Notes under the pieces: generated by a model
The model's database searches: none
Told to the model about the DNA's origin: nothing
The model's input: only the letters and a program-made list of their open reading frames with translations
Program-made: the position numbers and the translations under genes
Shown here: positions 37,027-40,317 of the stretch, piece by piece
Layout of the letters: each line of letters opens with the position of its first letter
Position numbering within the stretch: the stretch's first letter is position 1
IMG/VR virus record: IMGVR_UViG_3300045988_068596
From: a virus
Length of the DNA: 64,000 nucleotides
Direction: 5' to 3' (one strand)

Positions 37027-37092
37027 CTCCTCTAACTTTTTCTTATTTTTGACAATATTAAGAGCCTGACTAGCAGGCTCTAATAAACCTTA

Positions 37093-37166
37093 CATATGTT
37101 TCACACGTGCATCTATTTCTTTTTTACGTCCGTGTGCATTAGGACGAGCTTGTGGTTGACCCAAAT
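37093..37166 (-). CDS. nrdD: nrdD exon 2 (C-terminal 25 codons restoring the glycyl-radical motif)
   Basis: Joining ...CAG TGT GGG T | AT TTG GGT CAA... gives RQCGYLGQPQARPNAHGRKKEIDARVKHM*. Compare E. coli RRTCGYLGSPDARPFNAGKKEEVKRRVKH. Confidence 0.7.
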
Positions 37167-38222
37167 CCTTAATACCCTCGGTTTCCCGATATTTATTAGG
37201 GGAGTAGACTATACCTTAGACAACAAAACTTTGAACTTTTTCTTGATAATATCTAACGATAACGGGAAATAGCGTACAACAATAGCAAATAGTTTTTCGT
37301 TCTCTTGACTGCTAGCACCTAGGTTTACTCTTTTAATGCCATGTTCATAGAACCTTACGCCCGTTTTAGCGTACCATTGGTCGATTAAAGCTTGGCGCTC
37401 TTCGTCAGTCCAATTGTAAGTTGTAATGCAGAAGCGCCCCTTAGTCCGCTCCTTATTAGAATAAGCAAACCAACCATCGTCAAGTAAATGGATAATAAGA
37501 CCCAGTTCGTCTAACTCCTTAATAACTTCCAATCTTGTCATCTGCTTATACGGAAGTAATGATGGGGTAGTTAGCGTTGTAAATTCTTTTGCATCCGAAA
37601 ATCTGCAATCATTCTGGTTCTTATCGTAAATAGTCGAGTTTTCTGTAAGTTCACCTAACGATTGGTATTTCCATCGTAAGTAATCCGCTTCACCTAAAGC
37701 ATGACACTCAGAATATTGCACATTATGCCTTCCGTTAAGTTTAAACCGACCATCACCTAACCAACCACCTAATAATACTTGGTGCTGTATTGGATTGATG
37801 TTTACTTCCTTGTTGTGGGGTTGTTGCTTCTTAAACCTACGCCCTATTTCGTAAACTTGGTGTACTGTACAGTTATATTGGTTTGCTAAATTCTGTGCAG
37901 TAGTTGTTCCATATTTTTTTGCTATTTCCTGTTGTATGTTTTTATCAAGTTGTTTAGTCATTTTGTAGCCTCCGTGATTATAGTCGTTGAGCGTTATTCC
38001 TTATATGTCTAGTATAACATAAAACCTAACTAACTGATTTTACGTTTAAATAAGGAATCTTCGTTGCGGATTTACCAATCTCCAACTCTTTTACCATACC
38101 TGAGTGGTTAGTTCAGCCCCTGTATGTATTACTACTACAGGTTGGTGTTTGGAGCTATAAGGTAGTTCCCGTCAATTTACACGGTTTATTATAGTGTGAG
38201 CCTTTAGGCTATTATTTTTTTA
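37167..38222 (-). mobile_element. group I intron in nrdD (intron ends in G, upstream exon ends in U) carrying a LAGLIDADG homing endonuclease
   Basis: nrdD frame is interrupted right after Cys-Gly of the CGY glycyl-radical motif and resumes 1056 nt downstream; ORF inside. Confidence 0.65.
37209..37961 (-). CDS. LAGLIDADG homing endonuclease (intron-encoded)
   Basis: two LAGLIDADG-like motifs (VLLGGWLGDG and IIHLLDDGW). Confidence 0.65.
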   Translation of the reverse strand: MTKQLDKNIQQEIAKKYGTTTAQNLANQYNCTVHQVYEIGRRFKKQQPHNKEVNINPIQHQVLLGGWLGDGRFKLNGRHNVQYSECHALGEADYLRWKYQSLGELTENSTIYDKNQNDCRFSDAKEFTTLTTPSLLPYKQMTRLEVIKELDELGLIIHLLDDGWFAYSNKERTKGRFCITTYNWTDEERQALIDQWYAKTGVRFYEHGIKRVNLGASSQENEKLFAIVVRYFPLSLDIIKKKFKVLLSKV

Positions 38223-40317
38223 ACCCACACTGTCTTTTAACGACATCGCATGTTGCGGGGTCATTATTCCCACATTGTGGACATTCGTAGCCGTCTGATG
38301 TGGGGTTAAACTCTCCGTCAAAACCACATTCATGACATTTATCAATCGGGGTGTTTGTTCCTAAATAACCAACTTTATCATAGCTGTAGTCCCAAACAGC
38401 TTCTAACGCCTTAAGGTTATGAACTAATTTAGGGTACTCTACATAGTGAATAAAACCACCAGAAGCATATTTTGGAAACTCTTTCTCAAAGTCAATCTTT
38501 TCAAAAGGTGTTGGAGCTTTACGAACATCATAGTGGAAACTATTTGTATAGTATTCTTTGTCTGTAATGTTCTCGATGATTCCATATTTTTCTGTGTCCA
38601 TACGACAGAATCTATCGGTTAGACTTTCACTTGGTGTTGAGTAGATAGAAAACCAGATACCTGTCTCTTTTGTCCATTCATCCTTTTTATCATAAAGCTT
38701 ACGTAAAACATCTAAAGCAAACTCTTTTGCCTCTTCATGATGTGGGTCTGTTTTATCTTGCCAGTCACCACCGTAGAACATGCTAGCAACCTCGTACAGC
38801 CCAATATAGCCCATAGAAACCGTTGCACGGTTATTTATGAACAATTGTTTTACATCGTCATCATCGGTTAAATTAGCTCCAAAAGCACCATGTTTGTACA
38901 AGATAGGAGCATTCTTTGGTTGAGCTTCATAAGTACGTTCAATTCGATAAGCCAAAGCATCATGTAATACCTTAGCTCGTTCTTCAAAAATTTCCCAGAA
39001 GACTTCTTTATCCCCTTCTGATTCAATAGCAATACGTGGTAAGTTAAGGGTTACTACTCCTAAATTCATACGACCAGAGTTTACTTCGTTTCCATGTTCA
39101 TCTTTCCATCCTTGTAAGAATGAACGACAACCCATAGGACATTTAAATGAGCCTGTTAGCTCAACAATTTTGTCATAGTTCAAAATATCAGGGTACATAC
39201 GTTTAGCTGAACATTCTAATGCTAACTGTTTTACTTCATAGTTAGGGTCTTCTGGTTTACGGTTAACTCCGTCTTTAATAGTGAACAATAATTTAGGGAA
39301 GATTGCTGTACGTCCTTCTGTACCTAGACCTTGGATACGTACTTTAAAAATAGCTTTTTGGATTTCTCTTTCCCAACGTCCAGTACCTAAACCAAAACCA
39401 ATAGACGTGAAAGGAGTCTGACCATTCGATGTAAATAACGTATTAATTTCATACTCTAGGCTTTGCATTGCATCGTAAATATCTTTGTTTGTTTTCTCGA
39501 TTGCATATGTTTCTGGCTCAGGAATACGATAACGTTTAGCATCTGTCATATGTTTTTGATAATTCATTTCAGCATAAGGTGCTAATACTTCATCAATACG
39601 GTCAAACGAACAACCACCATATTGACTGGAAGCCACATTCGCAATAATTTGTGCTGTTTGTGCTGTAGCTGTTTGAATGGAATGCGGTGAACCTATTTCT
39701 GCGTTACCCATTTTAAACCCATTCTTCAACATATATTCAAAGTCAATCAAACAACAATTTGTCATTGGACGATAAGGTTGATAGTCTAAATCGTGATAAT
39801 GAATATCTCCACGTAAATGTGCGTTAGCTACATGAGGAGGGAGCATTTTAAGACCCTCAACTTTGTTAACTGTACCTGCTGTAAGGTCTCGTTCTGTTGC
39901 AAATGTATTTGAGTCCTTATTTGCATTCTCATTGACAATAGTTTTGTCCTTTTCTTGTAGCTTACGTAATCTTACATTAATATCTGTATCACCTGCACGT
40001 TCAGCATCACGTAAAGAACGAAACTCAATATAGTTTCTAGCTACGTTTTTAGCAAAAGATTTCATTAATTCCTGCTCTACAATACTTTGGAGTTTTGCAA
40101 TATCGACACGTCCTGTATCGCTGTAATGCTTCACTACAAAGCGTTTAACACGTTCAGCTATAATCTCTCCTAAATCTGTTTTAGCGCCTGTAGCATCCTT
40201 CTCAGCTCGTCCTACGGCACGTACAATCCTTCCTTCATTAAACTTGACAGTTCTTCCGTCTCGTTTAACTACAAAAATCTGTTTTGTCTTAACATCTACA
40301 TCTTGTGTTGCTTGCAC
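38223..40317 (-). CDS. nrdD: anaerobic ribonucleoside-triphosphate reductase NrdD, exon 1
   Basis: 701-aa ORF with NrdD N-terminal ATP-cone and core; C-terminal Zn-ribbon CHECG...CPQCG; ends at ...KRQCG within the glycyl-radical motif. Confidence 0.85.

What the first reader, a model, noticed from the sequence alone, without database searches (positions are those of the whole stretch)
37090..40317. nrdD split by a group I intron exactly inside the glycyl-radical CGY codons; the intron carries a LAGLIDADG homing endonuclease
The 701-aa NrdD ORF ends at ...VVKRQCG-LKK*. In frame, 1056 nt further on the minus strand, lies YLGQPQARPNAHGRKKEIDARVKHM*. That is a near-perfect match to the E. coli NrdD C-terminus CGYLGSPDARPFNAGKKEEVKRRVKH. 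Joining after the U of ...TGT GGG T restores the Cys-Gly-Tyr glycyl-radical motif. The intron ends in G. It contains a 250-aa ORF with two LAGLIDADG motifs. It parallels the T4 nrdD intron, but the insertion site (at the radical glycine) and the endonuclease family differ.
Basis: seen in the sequence. Interest (0 to 1): 0.65.

Follow-up and report, generated by a model that had tools for sequence, protein, structure and literature searches.

The report
Mobile self-splicing intron splitting phage nrdD

Summary
nrdD lies on the minus strand. Exon 1 (40317..38223) ends TGT GGG T. A 1056-nt insert follows (38222..37167, last base G). Exon 2 (37166..37090) starts AT TTG GGT. Joining the exons gives a 723-aa NrdD with C-G-Y restored, and G698 aligns with T4 NrdD residue 580.

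About 25 related Schiekvirus phages lack exactly these 1056 nt. Phage GVEsP-1 differs from the window at only 4 of 3445 flanking bases. Three of those are synonymous changes within 10 nt upstream of the insertion point, which looks like a homing co-conversion tract.

The insert has a full group I core: P1 with a U·G pair, P10, the P3/P7 pseudoknot, P4-P6, P8, P9 and a terminal G. In relatives, 93% of cells pair against 26-44% in slid controls, and 17 pairs show compensatory changes. The window's own Rfam score is sub-threshold.

The 250-aa ORF sits in the P8 loop and is an I-SceI-like double-motif LAGLIDADG enzyme.

Related introns occupy the same site in other phages and in Clostridium chromosomes. 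They carry LAGLIDADG, HNH or no ORF.

Splicing and cleavage are inferred, not shown. This is a new member of a known kind, of moderate interest.

The parts
38223..40317 (-). nrdD exon 1. It holds codons 1-698 plus the first base (T) of Tyr699 and ends ...CAG TGT GGG T. Gly698 is the predicted glycyl-radical residue.
   Evidence: Pfam NRDD 1e-177, Gly_radical 1.4e-25 and ATP-cone 1.1e-15. The alignment to T4 NrdD places G698 on residue 580.
37167..38222 (-). Group I intron, 1056 nt. It starts UAAAAAAAUAA and ends ...GGGUAUUAAGG, the last G being the terminal (omega) G.
   Evidence: The same 1056 nt are absent from GVEsP-1 and about 25 other Schiekvirus genomes. Covariation is shown.
37090..37166 (-). 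nrdD exon 2: AT + LGQPQARPNAHGRKKEIDARVKHM + TAA.
38194..38201 (-). Internal guide sequence GCUCACAC. It forms P1 with exon-1 bases GUGUGGGU (38230..38223), with a U·G wobble at the 5' splice site.
   Evidence: Eight of 8 pairs form in the window. The outermost pair changes G-C to A-U in L011.
38203..38209 (-). GCCUAAA, the part of the guide that forms P10 with exon-2 bases UUUGGGU (37165..37159).
   Evidence: Three of 7 pairs show changes on both sides across homologues. By eye, in L013 guide CACUA pairs with exon-2 UAGUG, and in L009 guide AGCCUAAA pairs with exon-2 UUUAGGCU (sequences).
38180..38184 (-). P3 5' strand CCGUG. It pairs with CACGG at 37976..37972.
   Evidence: Five of 6 P3 pairs carry compensatory changes.
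37996..38174 (-). P4-P6 domain: P4 (UGxCGGG/UCCGCA), P5 (UACC/GGUA), the P5a/b/c extension, and P6 (AUUCCUUAU/AUAAGGAAU). The 45-nt P6 loop holds an extended -10-like TGTTATACT at 38019..38011.
   Evidence: The MFE fold reproduces P4, P5, P5a, P5b and P6. P5 covaries at 3 of 4 pairs. P6 forms in every homologue where the region could be delimited, 12 of 13. The promoter reading is weak.
37981..37985 (-). P7 5' strand GACUA. It pairs with UAGUC at 37211..37207 and is the predicted guanosine-binding helix. The pairing with P3 makes a pseudoknot.
   Evidence: P7 is invariant in the ten aligned sequences. L069 has GAUCA/UGAUC, which is two compensatory changes.
37209..37961 (-). 250-aa LAGLIDADG homing endonuclease gene in the P8 loop. 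P8 strands GGCUACAAAA (37970..37961) and UUUUGUUGUC (37228..37219) flank it. The GGAGG ribosome-binding site (37973..37969) overlaps P3'/P8. The stop codon UAG is the first three bases of P7'.
   Evidence: Pfam PF03161. The motifs LLGGWLGDG and LLDDGW have invariant G69-D70-G71 and D161-D162-G163. The AF2 model has pLDDT 91.6. Foldseek top hits are I-WcaI at 3.9e-10 and I-SceI at 4.1e-10. A P8 duplex is found in all ORF-bearing homologues.
37175..37202 (-). P9 (CCC/GGG) enclosing hairpin P9b, UCGG-GAAA-CCGA, which has a GNRA tetraloop.
   Evidence: All 4 P9b pairs and 1 of 3 P9 pairs show compensatory changes.
38224..38233 (-). Putative co-conversion tract. There are three synonymous differences from intron-less alleles, at 38233 (A vs G), 38230 (G vs A) and 38224 (G vs A). 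The last one, GGA to GGG, completes P1.
   Evidence: These are 3 of the only 4 differences from GVEsP-1 in 3445 nt. None of 29 intron-less Schiekvirus records carries this variant. The same AGA CAG TGT GGG is found in metagenomic intron-bearing alleles L006 and L008.

Best explanation
This is a mobile group I intron with an embedded LAGLIDADG homing endonuclease gene. It is inserted in the phage's class III ribonucleotide reductase gene nrdD, inside the Tyr codon that follows the glycyl-radical Gly codon.

Inferred mechanism of splicing:
- nrdD is transcribed as one precursor.
- Ribosomes reading exon 1 stop at an in-frame UAA three codons into the intron, upstream of the guide sequence.
- The RNA folds into the P1-P10 ribozyme. 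A free guanosine bound at P7 attacks the U·G-marked 5' splice site.
- The terminal G then occupies the same site, P10 aligns exon 2, and the exons are ligated to UGU GGG UAU UUG. This yields a full 723-aa NrdD with its radical glycine loop.

Inferred mechanism of spread:
- The endonuclease is translated from the ORF in the P8 loop. Its ribosome-binding site and start codon are sequestered in P3/P8 of the folded precursor, so it may be read from a separate transcript.
- It cuts intron-less nrdD alleles at the conserved glycyl-radical coding sequence during mixed infection.
- Repair from the intron-bearing genome copies the intron in, together with a few flanking exon bases.

Shown here: the exact insertion/absence polymorphism, restoration of the reading frame, ribozyme helices with covariation, the endonuclease fold and motifs, and the co-conversion-like tract. 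Inferred: catalysis, cleavage site and specificity, and regulation.
For: The insertion polymorphism is exact, at 1056 nt. The spliced product is 723 aa and G698 aligns with T4 G580. On the ten-sequence ORF-deleted alignment, 93.4% of cells pair against 25.8-44.1% when partners are slid, 17 pairs have changes on both sides against 3-6, and 0 of 500 shuffles reach the observed values. P6 and P8 helices are present with different sequences in the homologues. RF00028 matches the window core at 20.4 bits (E 0.018) and ORF-less relatives L138 and L235 over the full model at 56.3 and 55.2 bits, where the gathering score is 50. The core is 72-94% identical over short stretches to sequences lying between split DNA-polymerase CDS fragments in Bacillus phage SIOphi and beside an annotated 'group I intron protein' in the terminase region of Staphylococcus phage Romulus. 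The endonuclease matches PF03161, has conserved catalytic Asp residues in both motifs, and has an I-SceI/I-WcaI-like fold. In all 13 metagenomic loci fetched for ten endonuclease homologues (38-73% identity), the gene lies at the nrdD 3' end next to this site. It is inside the intron in every locus where both junctions could be read (L006, L008, L009, L011, L015, L141-L143), except L013, where it is free-standing just downstream. Three of the 4 differences from GVEsP-1 cluster within 10 nt of the site and are absent from 29 intron-less alleles.
Against: There are no RNA or biochemical data. The window's own Rfam score (20.4 bits) is well below the gathering score of 50, and the whole-window gathering scan found no group I hit. 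No P2 helix was identified, and I did not assign a subgroup. The alignment was made from ORF-deleted constructs that I cut myself, and the structure was derived from these same sequences, which inflates the paired fraction somewhat. P4 and P7 are invariant in the ten sequences and so carry no information. The three flanking substitutions could also reflect selection for P1 pairing rather than co-conversion. The internal promoter is only an extended -10-like match, and the consensus scan did not report it.
Confidence: 0.93

Rival explanations
1. The insert is a dead or non-splicing insertion. nrdD would then be a truncated pseudogene of 701 aa lacking the end of the glycyl-radical loop, followed by a free-standing endonuclease gene, as the iF6 GenBank record in effect annotates it.
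For: The iF6 record lists a 701-aa 'class III ribonucleotide reductase' and a separate 'DNA endonuclease' with no intron feature. The iF6 paper does not mention an intron. The window's Rfam score is sub-threshold.
Against: All ribozyme helices are intact and covary. Exon 2 stays in frame and is identical to that of intron-less phages. The same architecture is kept over 38-73% endonuclease divergence and in different nrdD backgrounds. The intron appears to have arrived very recently in an otherwise 99.9% identical genome, which leaves little time for decay.
Confidence: 0.03
2. The ribozyme is real but not autonomous, and needs the LAGLIDADG protein as a maturase or a host factor for efficient splicing. 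The protein may have lost or reduced its nuclease activity.
For: Structural neighbours include the bI3 maturase (2ab5, E 7.7e-07) and the bifunctional I-AniI (1p8k). A bacterial LAGLIDADG maturase is documented in Thermotoga (PMC3984707). The ORF overlaps P8, J8/7 and P7', so protein and RNA are physically coupled.
Against: Both catalytic Asp positions are invariant in 18 homologues. The top structural matches are active nucleases, I-WcaI and I-SceI. The co-conversion-like tract argues for recent nuclease-driven homing. ORF-less relatives exist in the same site in Clostridium chromosomes and phages, so the core can presumably splice without this protein.
Confidence: 0.1
3. This is a genes-in-pieces arrangement or an intein. 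NrdD would be made as two polypeptides that assemble, as in Aeromonas phage Aeh1 NrdA split by mobE, or the insert would be removed at the protein level.
For: Split but functional RNR genes exist in phages (PMC3653736).
Against: Exon 2 begins in mid-codon and has no start codon or ribosome-binding site. The insert has in-frame stops three codons in, which rules out an intein. The RNA structure evidence accounts for the insert fully.
Confidence: 0.01

Closest known systems
Phage T4 nrdD (sunY) group I intron encoding I-TevII
   Same: [quoted passage not shown]
   Different: The T4 intron lies between ...DAFQAYE and YEVNTLF, at about codon 180 and roughly 400 codons upstream of G580. Its enzyme is GIY-YIG, not LAGLIDADG. 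These are independent insertions, not orthologues.
Group I introns of SPO1-like/Herelleviridae phages (split DNA polymerase genes of Bacillus phages such as SIOphi; terminase and other genes of Staphylococcus Twort-like phages such as Romulus)
   Same: They come from the same virus family. Short stretches of the ribozyme core (intron nt 43-164 and 1004-1054) are 72-94% identical. They sit in conserved replication or nucleotide-metabolism genes (PMC3653736).
   Different: The host genes and insertion sites differ. The endonucleases reported for phage introns are mostly HNH, GIY-YIG, PD-(D/E)xK or EDxHD (PMC3984707). Here the enzyme is LAGLIDADG.
I-SceI / I-WcaI (monomeric double-motif LAGLIDADG homing endonucleases of fungal mitochondrial group I introns)
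   Same: These are the best structural matches to the predicted fold (E about 4e-10, TM 0.61-0.69). They share two LAGLIDADG motifs with acidic residues and the same Pfam family, PF03161.
   Different: Sequence identity is 14-18%, and there was no hit by sequence against PDB. The window protein has an extra N-terminal three-helix segment of about 55 residues. The host is a phage and the target is nrdD.
Collaborative homing systems (a free-standing endonuclease plus an ORF-less intron at the same site: cyanophage S-PM2 psbA/F-CphI; T7-like phage DNA polymerase)
   Same: In metagenomic locus L013 a 42%-identical LAGLIDADG gene is free-standing between nrdD exon 2 and nrdG, while a 267-nt ORF-less relative of this intron occupies the same CG|Y site. 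That matches the arrangement described in PMC3984707.
   Different: In the window itself the gene is already inside the intron, in the P8 loop. Whether L013 is an ancestral or a derived state, and what its enzyme cuts, is unknown.

Membership tests
Group I intron (Rfam RF00028) | The 5' exon ends in U, which forms a U·G wobble with an internal guide sequence (P1). | tested here: met
   GUGUGGGU pairs with GCUCACAC. The U·G pair is invariant in 10 of 10 homologues and the outermost pair covaries.
Group I intron (Rfam RF00028) | Terminal G at the 3' end of the intron, with P10 pairing between the guide and the 3' exon. | tested here: met
   The intron ends ...UAAGG at 37167. All 16 family members listed end in G. 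P10 is 7 bp in the window and covaries at 3 of 7 pairs.
Group I intron (Rfam RF00028) | Conserved core: P3/P7 pseudoknot, P4-P6 domain and P8, supported by covariation. | tested here: met
   93.4% of cells pair against 26-44% when slid. Seventeen pairs carry compensatory changes and 0 of 500 shuffles reach the observed values. P6 and P8 are shown. P7 changes by two compensatory substitutions in L069.
Group I intron (Rfam RF00028) | The covariance-model score reaches the curated gathering score of 50 bits. | tested here: not met
   The window scores 20.4 bits over model positions 50-157 only and has no hit in gathering mode. The 753-nt ORF in P8 and the long P6 loop break the match. ORF-less relatives at the same site do reach it: L138 at 56.3 bits and L235 at 55.2 bits, both over the full model.
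Group I intron (Rfam RF00028) | Guanosine-dependent self-splicing that yields ligated exons. | not testable with these tools
   This needs in vitro transcription with GTP, or RT-PCR from infected cells.
LAGLIDADG homing endonuclease (Pfam PF03161, I-SceI-like) | Pfam family match above the curated cut-off. | tested here: met
   39.3 bits against 25, E 8.4e-10. All 19 database homologues carry PF03161.
LAGLIDADG homing endonuclease (Pfam PF03161, I-SceI-like) | Two LAGLIDADG helices, each ending in a catalytic acidic residue. | tested here: met
   LLGGWLGDG (G69 D70 G71) and LLDDGW (D161 D162 G163) are invariant in 18 sequences.
LAGLIDADG homing endonuclease (Pfam PF03161, I-SceI-like) | Pseudo-dimeric alpha-beta-beta-alpha-beta-beta-alpha fold. 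| tested here: met
   The AF2 model has pLDDT 91.6 and pTM 0.80. Foldseek gives 6x1j at 3.9e-10 and 1r7m at 4.1e-10, with 57 PDB matches at E <= 0.001; the 50 listed are almost all LAGLIDADG homing endonucleases/maturases or WhiA LAGLIDADG domains.
LAGLIDADG homing endonuclease (Pfam PF03161, I-SceI-like) | Site-specific double-strand cleavage of the intron-less allele. | not testable with these tools
   There is only indirect support: the presence/absence polymorphism and a 3-nt flanking conversion tract.
Class III ribonucleotide reductase NrdD (glycyl radical enzyme) | NRDD and Gly_radical domains, with the C-terminal RxCGY motif whose Gly aligns with the radical site. | tested here: met
   After splicing, RQCGYLG aligns with T4 RTC(A580)YLG and with 9d3x RTCGYLG. 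Without splicing the motif is cut after Gly.
T4 nrdD intron / I-TevII lineage | The same insertion site in nrdD and a GIY-YIG endonuclease. | tested here: not met
   The T4 site is at about codon 180. I-TevII is GIY-YIG.
Collaborative homing pair | A free-standing endonuclease gene next to an ORF-less intron, with the enzyme's target being the intron insertion site. | tested here: inconclusive
   The arrangement is seen only in relative L013 and not in the window. The target specificity cannot be tested here.

The most novel reading that the evidence does not exclude
The DNA that encodes the NrdD glycyl-radical motif may be a shared, contested homing site across phages and bacteria.

- One ribozyme lineage, always inserted after the T of the Tyr codon in C-G-Y, has been paired repeatedly with different nucleases. 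These are LAGLIDADG in P8, HNH in P8, a NUMOD-like enzyme downstream of P7', or none.
- The lineage is found in Enterococcus Herelleviridae, in 365-400-kb gut phage contigs (probably Jug phages) and in Clostridium/Sarcina chromosomes.
- Locus L013 may preserve the 'collaborative homing' stage, with a free-standing LAGLIDADG gene plus an ORF-less intron. The window would then represent the fused stage.
- Within the genus Schiekvirus, a second, unrelated free-standing nuclease gene (DUF2726, PD-(D/E)xK-like; phages 113, CCS1, Bop, 163) seems to compete for the same site. In those phages nrdD diverges abruptly from 12 nt upstream of CGY down to the stop codon.
Probability: 0.4. Interest if true: 0.55.

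Novelty: new member of a known kind. Interest (0 to 1): 0.42.

Why it matters
The practical point is annotation. The nearest public genome, iF6, a phage from a therapeutic cocktail, lists nrdD as a truncated 701-aa protein plus a stray 'DNA endonuclease'. VRE9_1 and several Clostridium genomes carry the same unannotated split. Correct joining restores the radical glycine loop, so these phages should be scored as having a working anaerobic RNR.

Biologically, it adds a clean and very recent homing event. Only three co-converted bases distinguish the flanks from an intron-less sister phage. It also adds a LAGLIDADG enzyme to the list of phage intron nucleases, which is usually described as GIY-YIG, HNH, PD-(D/E)xK and EDxHD.

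The family-wide series gives ready material for testing how mobile introns are assembled: ORF-less members, a free-standing endonuclease, an endonuclease in P8, and different endonucleases at one site. The enzyme would be a new natural meganuclease whose roughly 20-bp target can be guessed from the intron-less allele.

Tried and rejected
- Rfam at gathering thresholds over the whole window found no group I intron. The E-value scan of the whole window also listed none at E <= 0.1. Only a scan restricted to the region gave the 20.4-bit partial hit.
- phmmer of the endonuclease against PDB sequences gave nothing. The fold search was needed.
- tblastn of the endonuclease against 50,697 phage records found only iF6 and weak hits of 24-30% identity in Bacillus phages PBC2 and Sophrita. 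Relatives had to be taken from metagenomes.
- The consensus promoter scan did not find a sigma-70 promoter upstream of the ORF. My looser scan finds only an extended -10-like TGTTATACT in the P6 loop. Near-consensus promoters occur in the P6 loops of L015 and L143, but AT-rich sequence gives many such matches. I treat the internal promoter as a weak inference.
- The broad pattern scans of viral and genome contigs returned mostly chance matches, and I filtered them by NrdD reading-frame context.
- I checked the odd fact that the free-standing nuclease insert in phages 113 and CCS1 is also a net 1056 bp. The sequences are unrelated and I regard this as coincidence.
- I did not build a family covariance model. 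The alignment is about 390 columns, and the likely calibration time made it poor value.
- I did not assign an intron subgroup such as IA2. No P2 was identified and no tool here classifies subgroups.
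Full report
**Source and setting.** The window comes from an Enterococcus phage of the genus Schiekvirus (Herelleviridae, Brockvirinae). The stretch 36900-40400 is 98.5% identical over its whole length to phage iF6. With a 1056-nt gap, it is 99.9% identical to GVEsP-1, ZJGS3/4 and PEf771. All features lie on the minus strand.

**The observation.**
- The 701-aa ORF 38212..40317 ends ...VVKRQCGLKK*.
- The minus strand reads ...CAG TGT GGG T|TA AAA AAA TAA TAG... Then, 1056 nt later, it reads ...GGGTATTAAGG|AT TTG GGT CAA CCA ... 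CAT ATG TAA.
- Exon 1 therefore ends at 38223. The insert is 38222..37167 and ends in G. Exon 2 is 37166..37090.
- The joined CDS is 2172 nt, or 723 aa, the same length as the uninterrupted nrdD annotated in GVEsP-1 and phage 113.
- The last 159 residues of the spliced protein align end to end with solved NrdD chains: 9d3x at E 4.7e-81 and T4 1h78 at E 1.2e-48. RQCGYLGQP lies on T4 RTC-A580-YLGNP. The T4 crystal form is the G580A mutant, so G698 is the radical glycine position.
- Pfam finds ATP-cone, NRDD and Gly_radical domains in exon 1.

**Presence/absence polymorphism and recent homing.**
- About 25 Schiekvirus genomes match the query in two pieces that span 2443-2445 bp instead of 3501 bp, so they lack the insert.
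- A three-way alignment places the gap exactly at the proposed splice sites.
- With the insert removed, the window differs from GVEsP-1 at only 4 of 3445 positions. Three of these are synonymous changes at 38233, 38230 and 38224, all within 10 nt upstream of the insertion point: AGG CAA TGT GGA becomes AGA CAG TGT GGG.
- None of 29 intron-less Schiekvirus records carries this variant. The best matches are 97% over a 100-nt spliced junction.
- Metagenomic intron-bearing alleles L006 and L008 have exactly AGA CAG TGT GGG.
- This is what co-conversion of flanking exon markers during endonuclease-driven homing looks like (concept: PMC2988022).
- The GGA to GGG change also completes P1, so selection for splicing could contribute.
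- iF6 additionally has A at exon-2 position +5, as in L006 and L008. This suggests a longer tract or a separate event.

**The RNA.**
- By inspection and local folding, the insert has a complete group I layout.
- P1 pairs GUGUGGGU with GCUCACAC, with U·G at the 5' splice site.
- P10 pairs exon-2 UUUGGGU with GCCUAAA, which lies just 5' of the P1 guide.
- P3 (CCGUG/CACGG) and P7 (GACUA/UAGUC) form the pseudoknot.
- The MFE fold reproduces P4, P5, P5a/b and P6.
- P8 flanks the ORF.
- P9 encloses a GAAA-capped hairpin, and the intron ends in G.
- I tested this against relatives: nine other introns at the same site, with ORFs cut out where present (alignment A2).
  - 93.4% of cells form standard pairs, against 25.8-44.1% when the 3' partners are slid by 1-3 columns.
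  - 17 of 43 pairs show changes on both sides, against 3-6 in the slid controls.
  - 0 of 500 column shuffles reach any observed measure.
  - P3 (5 of 6 pairs), P9b (4 of 4), P5 (3 of 4) and P10 (3 of 7) carry the signal. P4 and P7 are invariant in this set.
  - P7 becomes GAUCA/UGAUC in L069, which is two compensatory changes.
- P6 and P8 exist in the homologues with unrelated sequences.
- Rfam RF00028 matches the window's P3-P6-P3' region at only 20.4 bits (E 0.018) and nothing at gathering thresholds. The 753-nt ORF and a 45-nt P6 loop interrupt the model.
- ORF-less relatives at the same site match the full model above the gathering score: L138 at 56.3 bits and L235 at 55.2 bits.
- Short core segments are 72-94% identical to sequences in other Herelleviridae. 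These lie between split DNA-polymerase CDS fragments in Bacillus phage SIOphi, and beside an annotated 'group I intron protein' in the terminase region of Staphylococcus phage Romulus.
- An in-frame stop occurs 2-4 codons into the intron, before the guide sequence, in 14 of 16 family members.

**The protein.**
- The ORF 37961..37209 (250 aa) matches LAGLIDADG_2.
- Eighteen homologues of 36-73% identity keep LLGGxLGDG and LLDDGW with invariant D70 and D161/D162.
- The AlphaFold model (pLDDT 91.6) has two alpha-beta-beta-alpha-beta-beta-alpha halves after an N-terminal three-helix segment.
- Its best PDB matches are I-WcaI and I-SceI (E about 4e-10, TM 0.61-0.69). They are followed by the bI3 maturase, I-AniI, I-OnuI, I-DmoI and WhiA.
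- The GGAGG ribosome-binding site lies 7 nt before the AUG and overlaps P3' and P8. The last codons (AAG GUA UAG) are J8/7 and the start of P7'.
- Translation and ribozyme folding are therefore likely to be mutually exclusive on one RNA. This is an inference, by analogy with the T4 introns (PMC2988022).
- An internal promoter in the P6 loop is possible but weakly supported.

**A family, not a one-off.**
- I fetched 13 metagenomic loci for ten endonuclease homologues, and in all of them the gene lies at the nrdD 3' end next to this site.
- In every locus where both junctions could be read (L006, L008, L009, L011, L015, L141-L143), exon 1 ends TGTGGGT|TAA... and an exon 2 of the form YLG/YIG... 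follows the ORF.
- L013 is the exception. There the intron is 267 nt and ORF-less, and the endonuclease gene stands free between exon 2 and nrdG.
- Pattern scans found further members at the identical position:
  - a 160-nt minimal form in 365-400-kb gut phage contigs, probably the Jug phages of PMC12880540;
  - ORF-less forms of 272-394 nt;
  - forms with an HNH_3 ORF, intact in L066 and broken in L094.
- The published Enterococcus phage VRE9_1 has the same split with a different endonuclease gene 3' of P7', and the intron is not annotated.
- ORF-less members of 236-280 nt occur in nrdD of Clostridium cuniculi, Sarcina ventriculi NCTC12966, a C. perfringens MAG and other Clostridiaceae; a Lachnospiraceae MAG (L172) shows the same 5' junction at a contig end.
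- I found no paper describing an intron at this nrdD site. The iF6 paper does not mention it.
- Split phage nrdD genes as such are well known (PMC3653736; PMC12880540).

**Comparison with T4.** The T4 nrdD intron interrupts ...DAFQAYE|YEVNTLF... at about codon 180 and encodes the GIY-YIG enzyme I-TevII. It shares the gene and the kind of element, but differs in site and nuclease.

**A second element at the same spot.** Phages 113, CCS1, Bop and 163 have an intact nrdD followed by a 332-aa free-standing gene. GenBank calls it a 'very short patch repair endonuclease', and Pfam matches DUF2726. Their nrdD sequence diverges sharply from the other Schiekvirus alleles, starting 12 nt upstream of CGY and running to the stop codon. 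This suggests that the second nuclease also targets the glycyl-radical coding region. It is an inference and I did not test it.

**Verdict.** It is an unannotated, probably active, recently acquired mobile group I intron with a LAGLIDADG homing endonuclease, inserted at the most conserved codons of nrdD. It is a new member of a known kind. The interest is moderate and lies in four things: the clean co-conversion signature, the unusual nuclease family for a phage intron (PMC3984707), the wide distribution of the site-specific ribozyme lineage, and the L013 arrangement that resembles collaborative homing.

Noticed in passing
window 53025-53611 (-): A full-length ROOL RNA (Rfam RF03087, 260 bits, E 3e-58) lies inside the phage tRNA region.
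   Followed up: no
window 47209-47559 (-) and 45017-54135 (-): A phage-encoded tmRNA (RF00023, 145 bits) sits within an array of 26 tRNA genes.
   Followed up: no
window 44045-44166, 44245-44338, 45345-45445 (-): There are three sub-threshold matches to YrlA (Y RNA-like, RF02553) at 47.8, 35.8 and 28.4 bits, where the gathering score is 69. They lie just beside the tRNA array and may be diverged Y-RNA-like genes.
   Followed up: no
L003 2813-3811 (phage 113); also L004, L005 and phage 163: A free-standing 332-aa nuclease-like gene (Pfam DUF2726, annotated as a Vsr endonuclease) lies between nrdD and the deoxynucleoside kinase gene. In these phages nrdD diverges abruptly from 12 nt upstream of the CGY codons to the stop codon, as if a second homing endonuclease used the same target. 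Its net insert size is also exactly 1056 bp (1054 bp in Bop), apparently by coincidence.
   Followed up: partly
L013 3040-4207: A 267-nt ORF-less relative of the intron occupies the same CG|Y site. A 42%-identical LAGLIDADG gene is free-standing downstream of exon 2 and upstream of nrdG. This arrangement resembles collaborative homing.
   Followed up: partly
L139 (Enterococcus phage VRE9_1, PP680567) 2464-3600: nrdD is split at the same TGTGGGT|TAA site by an unannotated intron. Its 148-aa 'homing endonuclease', with NUMOD-like repeats, lies after P7'. Exon 2 is not annotated.
   Followed up: partly
L166, L190, L194, L208, L235, L162 (Clostridium cuniculi, C. perfringens MAG, Clostridiaceae, Sarcina ventriculi NCTC12966 and others): ORF-less introns of 236-280 nt from the same family sit at the same site in nrdD on contigs assigned to bacterial genomes. 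I found no literature on them.
   Followed up: partly
L008, L009/L010, L011, L015: The metagenomic nrdD genes that carry the LAGLIDADG intron are broken into several further pieces by other inserts. One in L011 holds an HNH_3 ORF, so these are multiply invaded nrdD genes.
   Followed up: no
L001 (iF6, MT909815) 584-3692: The public annotation gives a truncated 701-aa class III RNR and a separate 'DNA endonuclease'. The intron and exon 2 are not annotated. The iF6 paper also reports that terL is split by two Vsr-like endonuclease genes, which may be further introns.
   Followed up: partly
L138 8952-9058 (-) and L162 607-1319 (+): A second weak group I hit (27.6 bits) lies elsewhere in the L138 phage contig. 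A group II intron (RF02004 at 106 bits, RF00029 at 53 bits) lies about 4 kb upstream of the nrdD intron in the Clostridium MAG contig L162.
   Followed up: no
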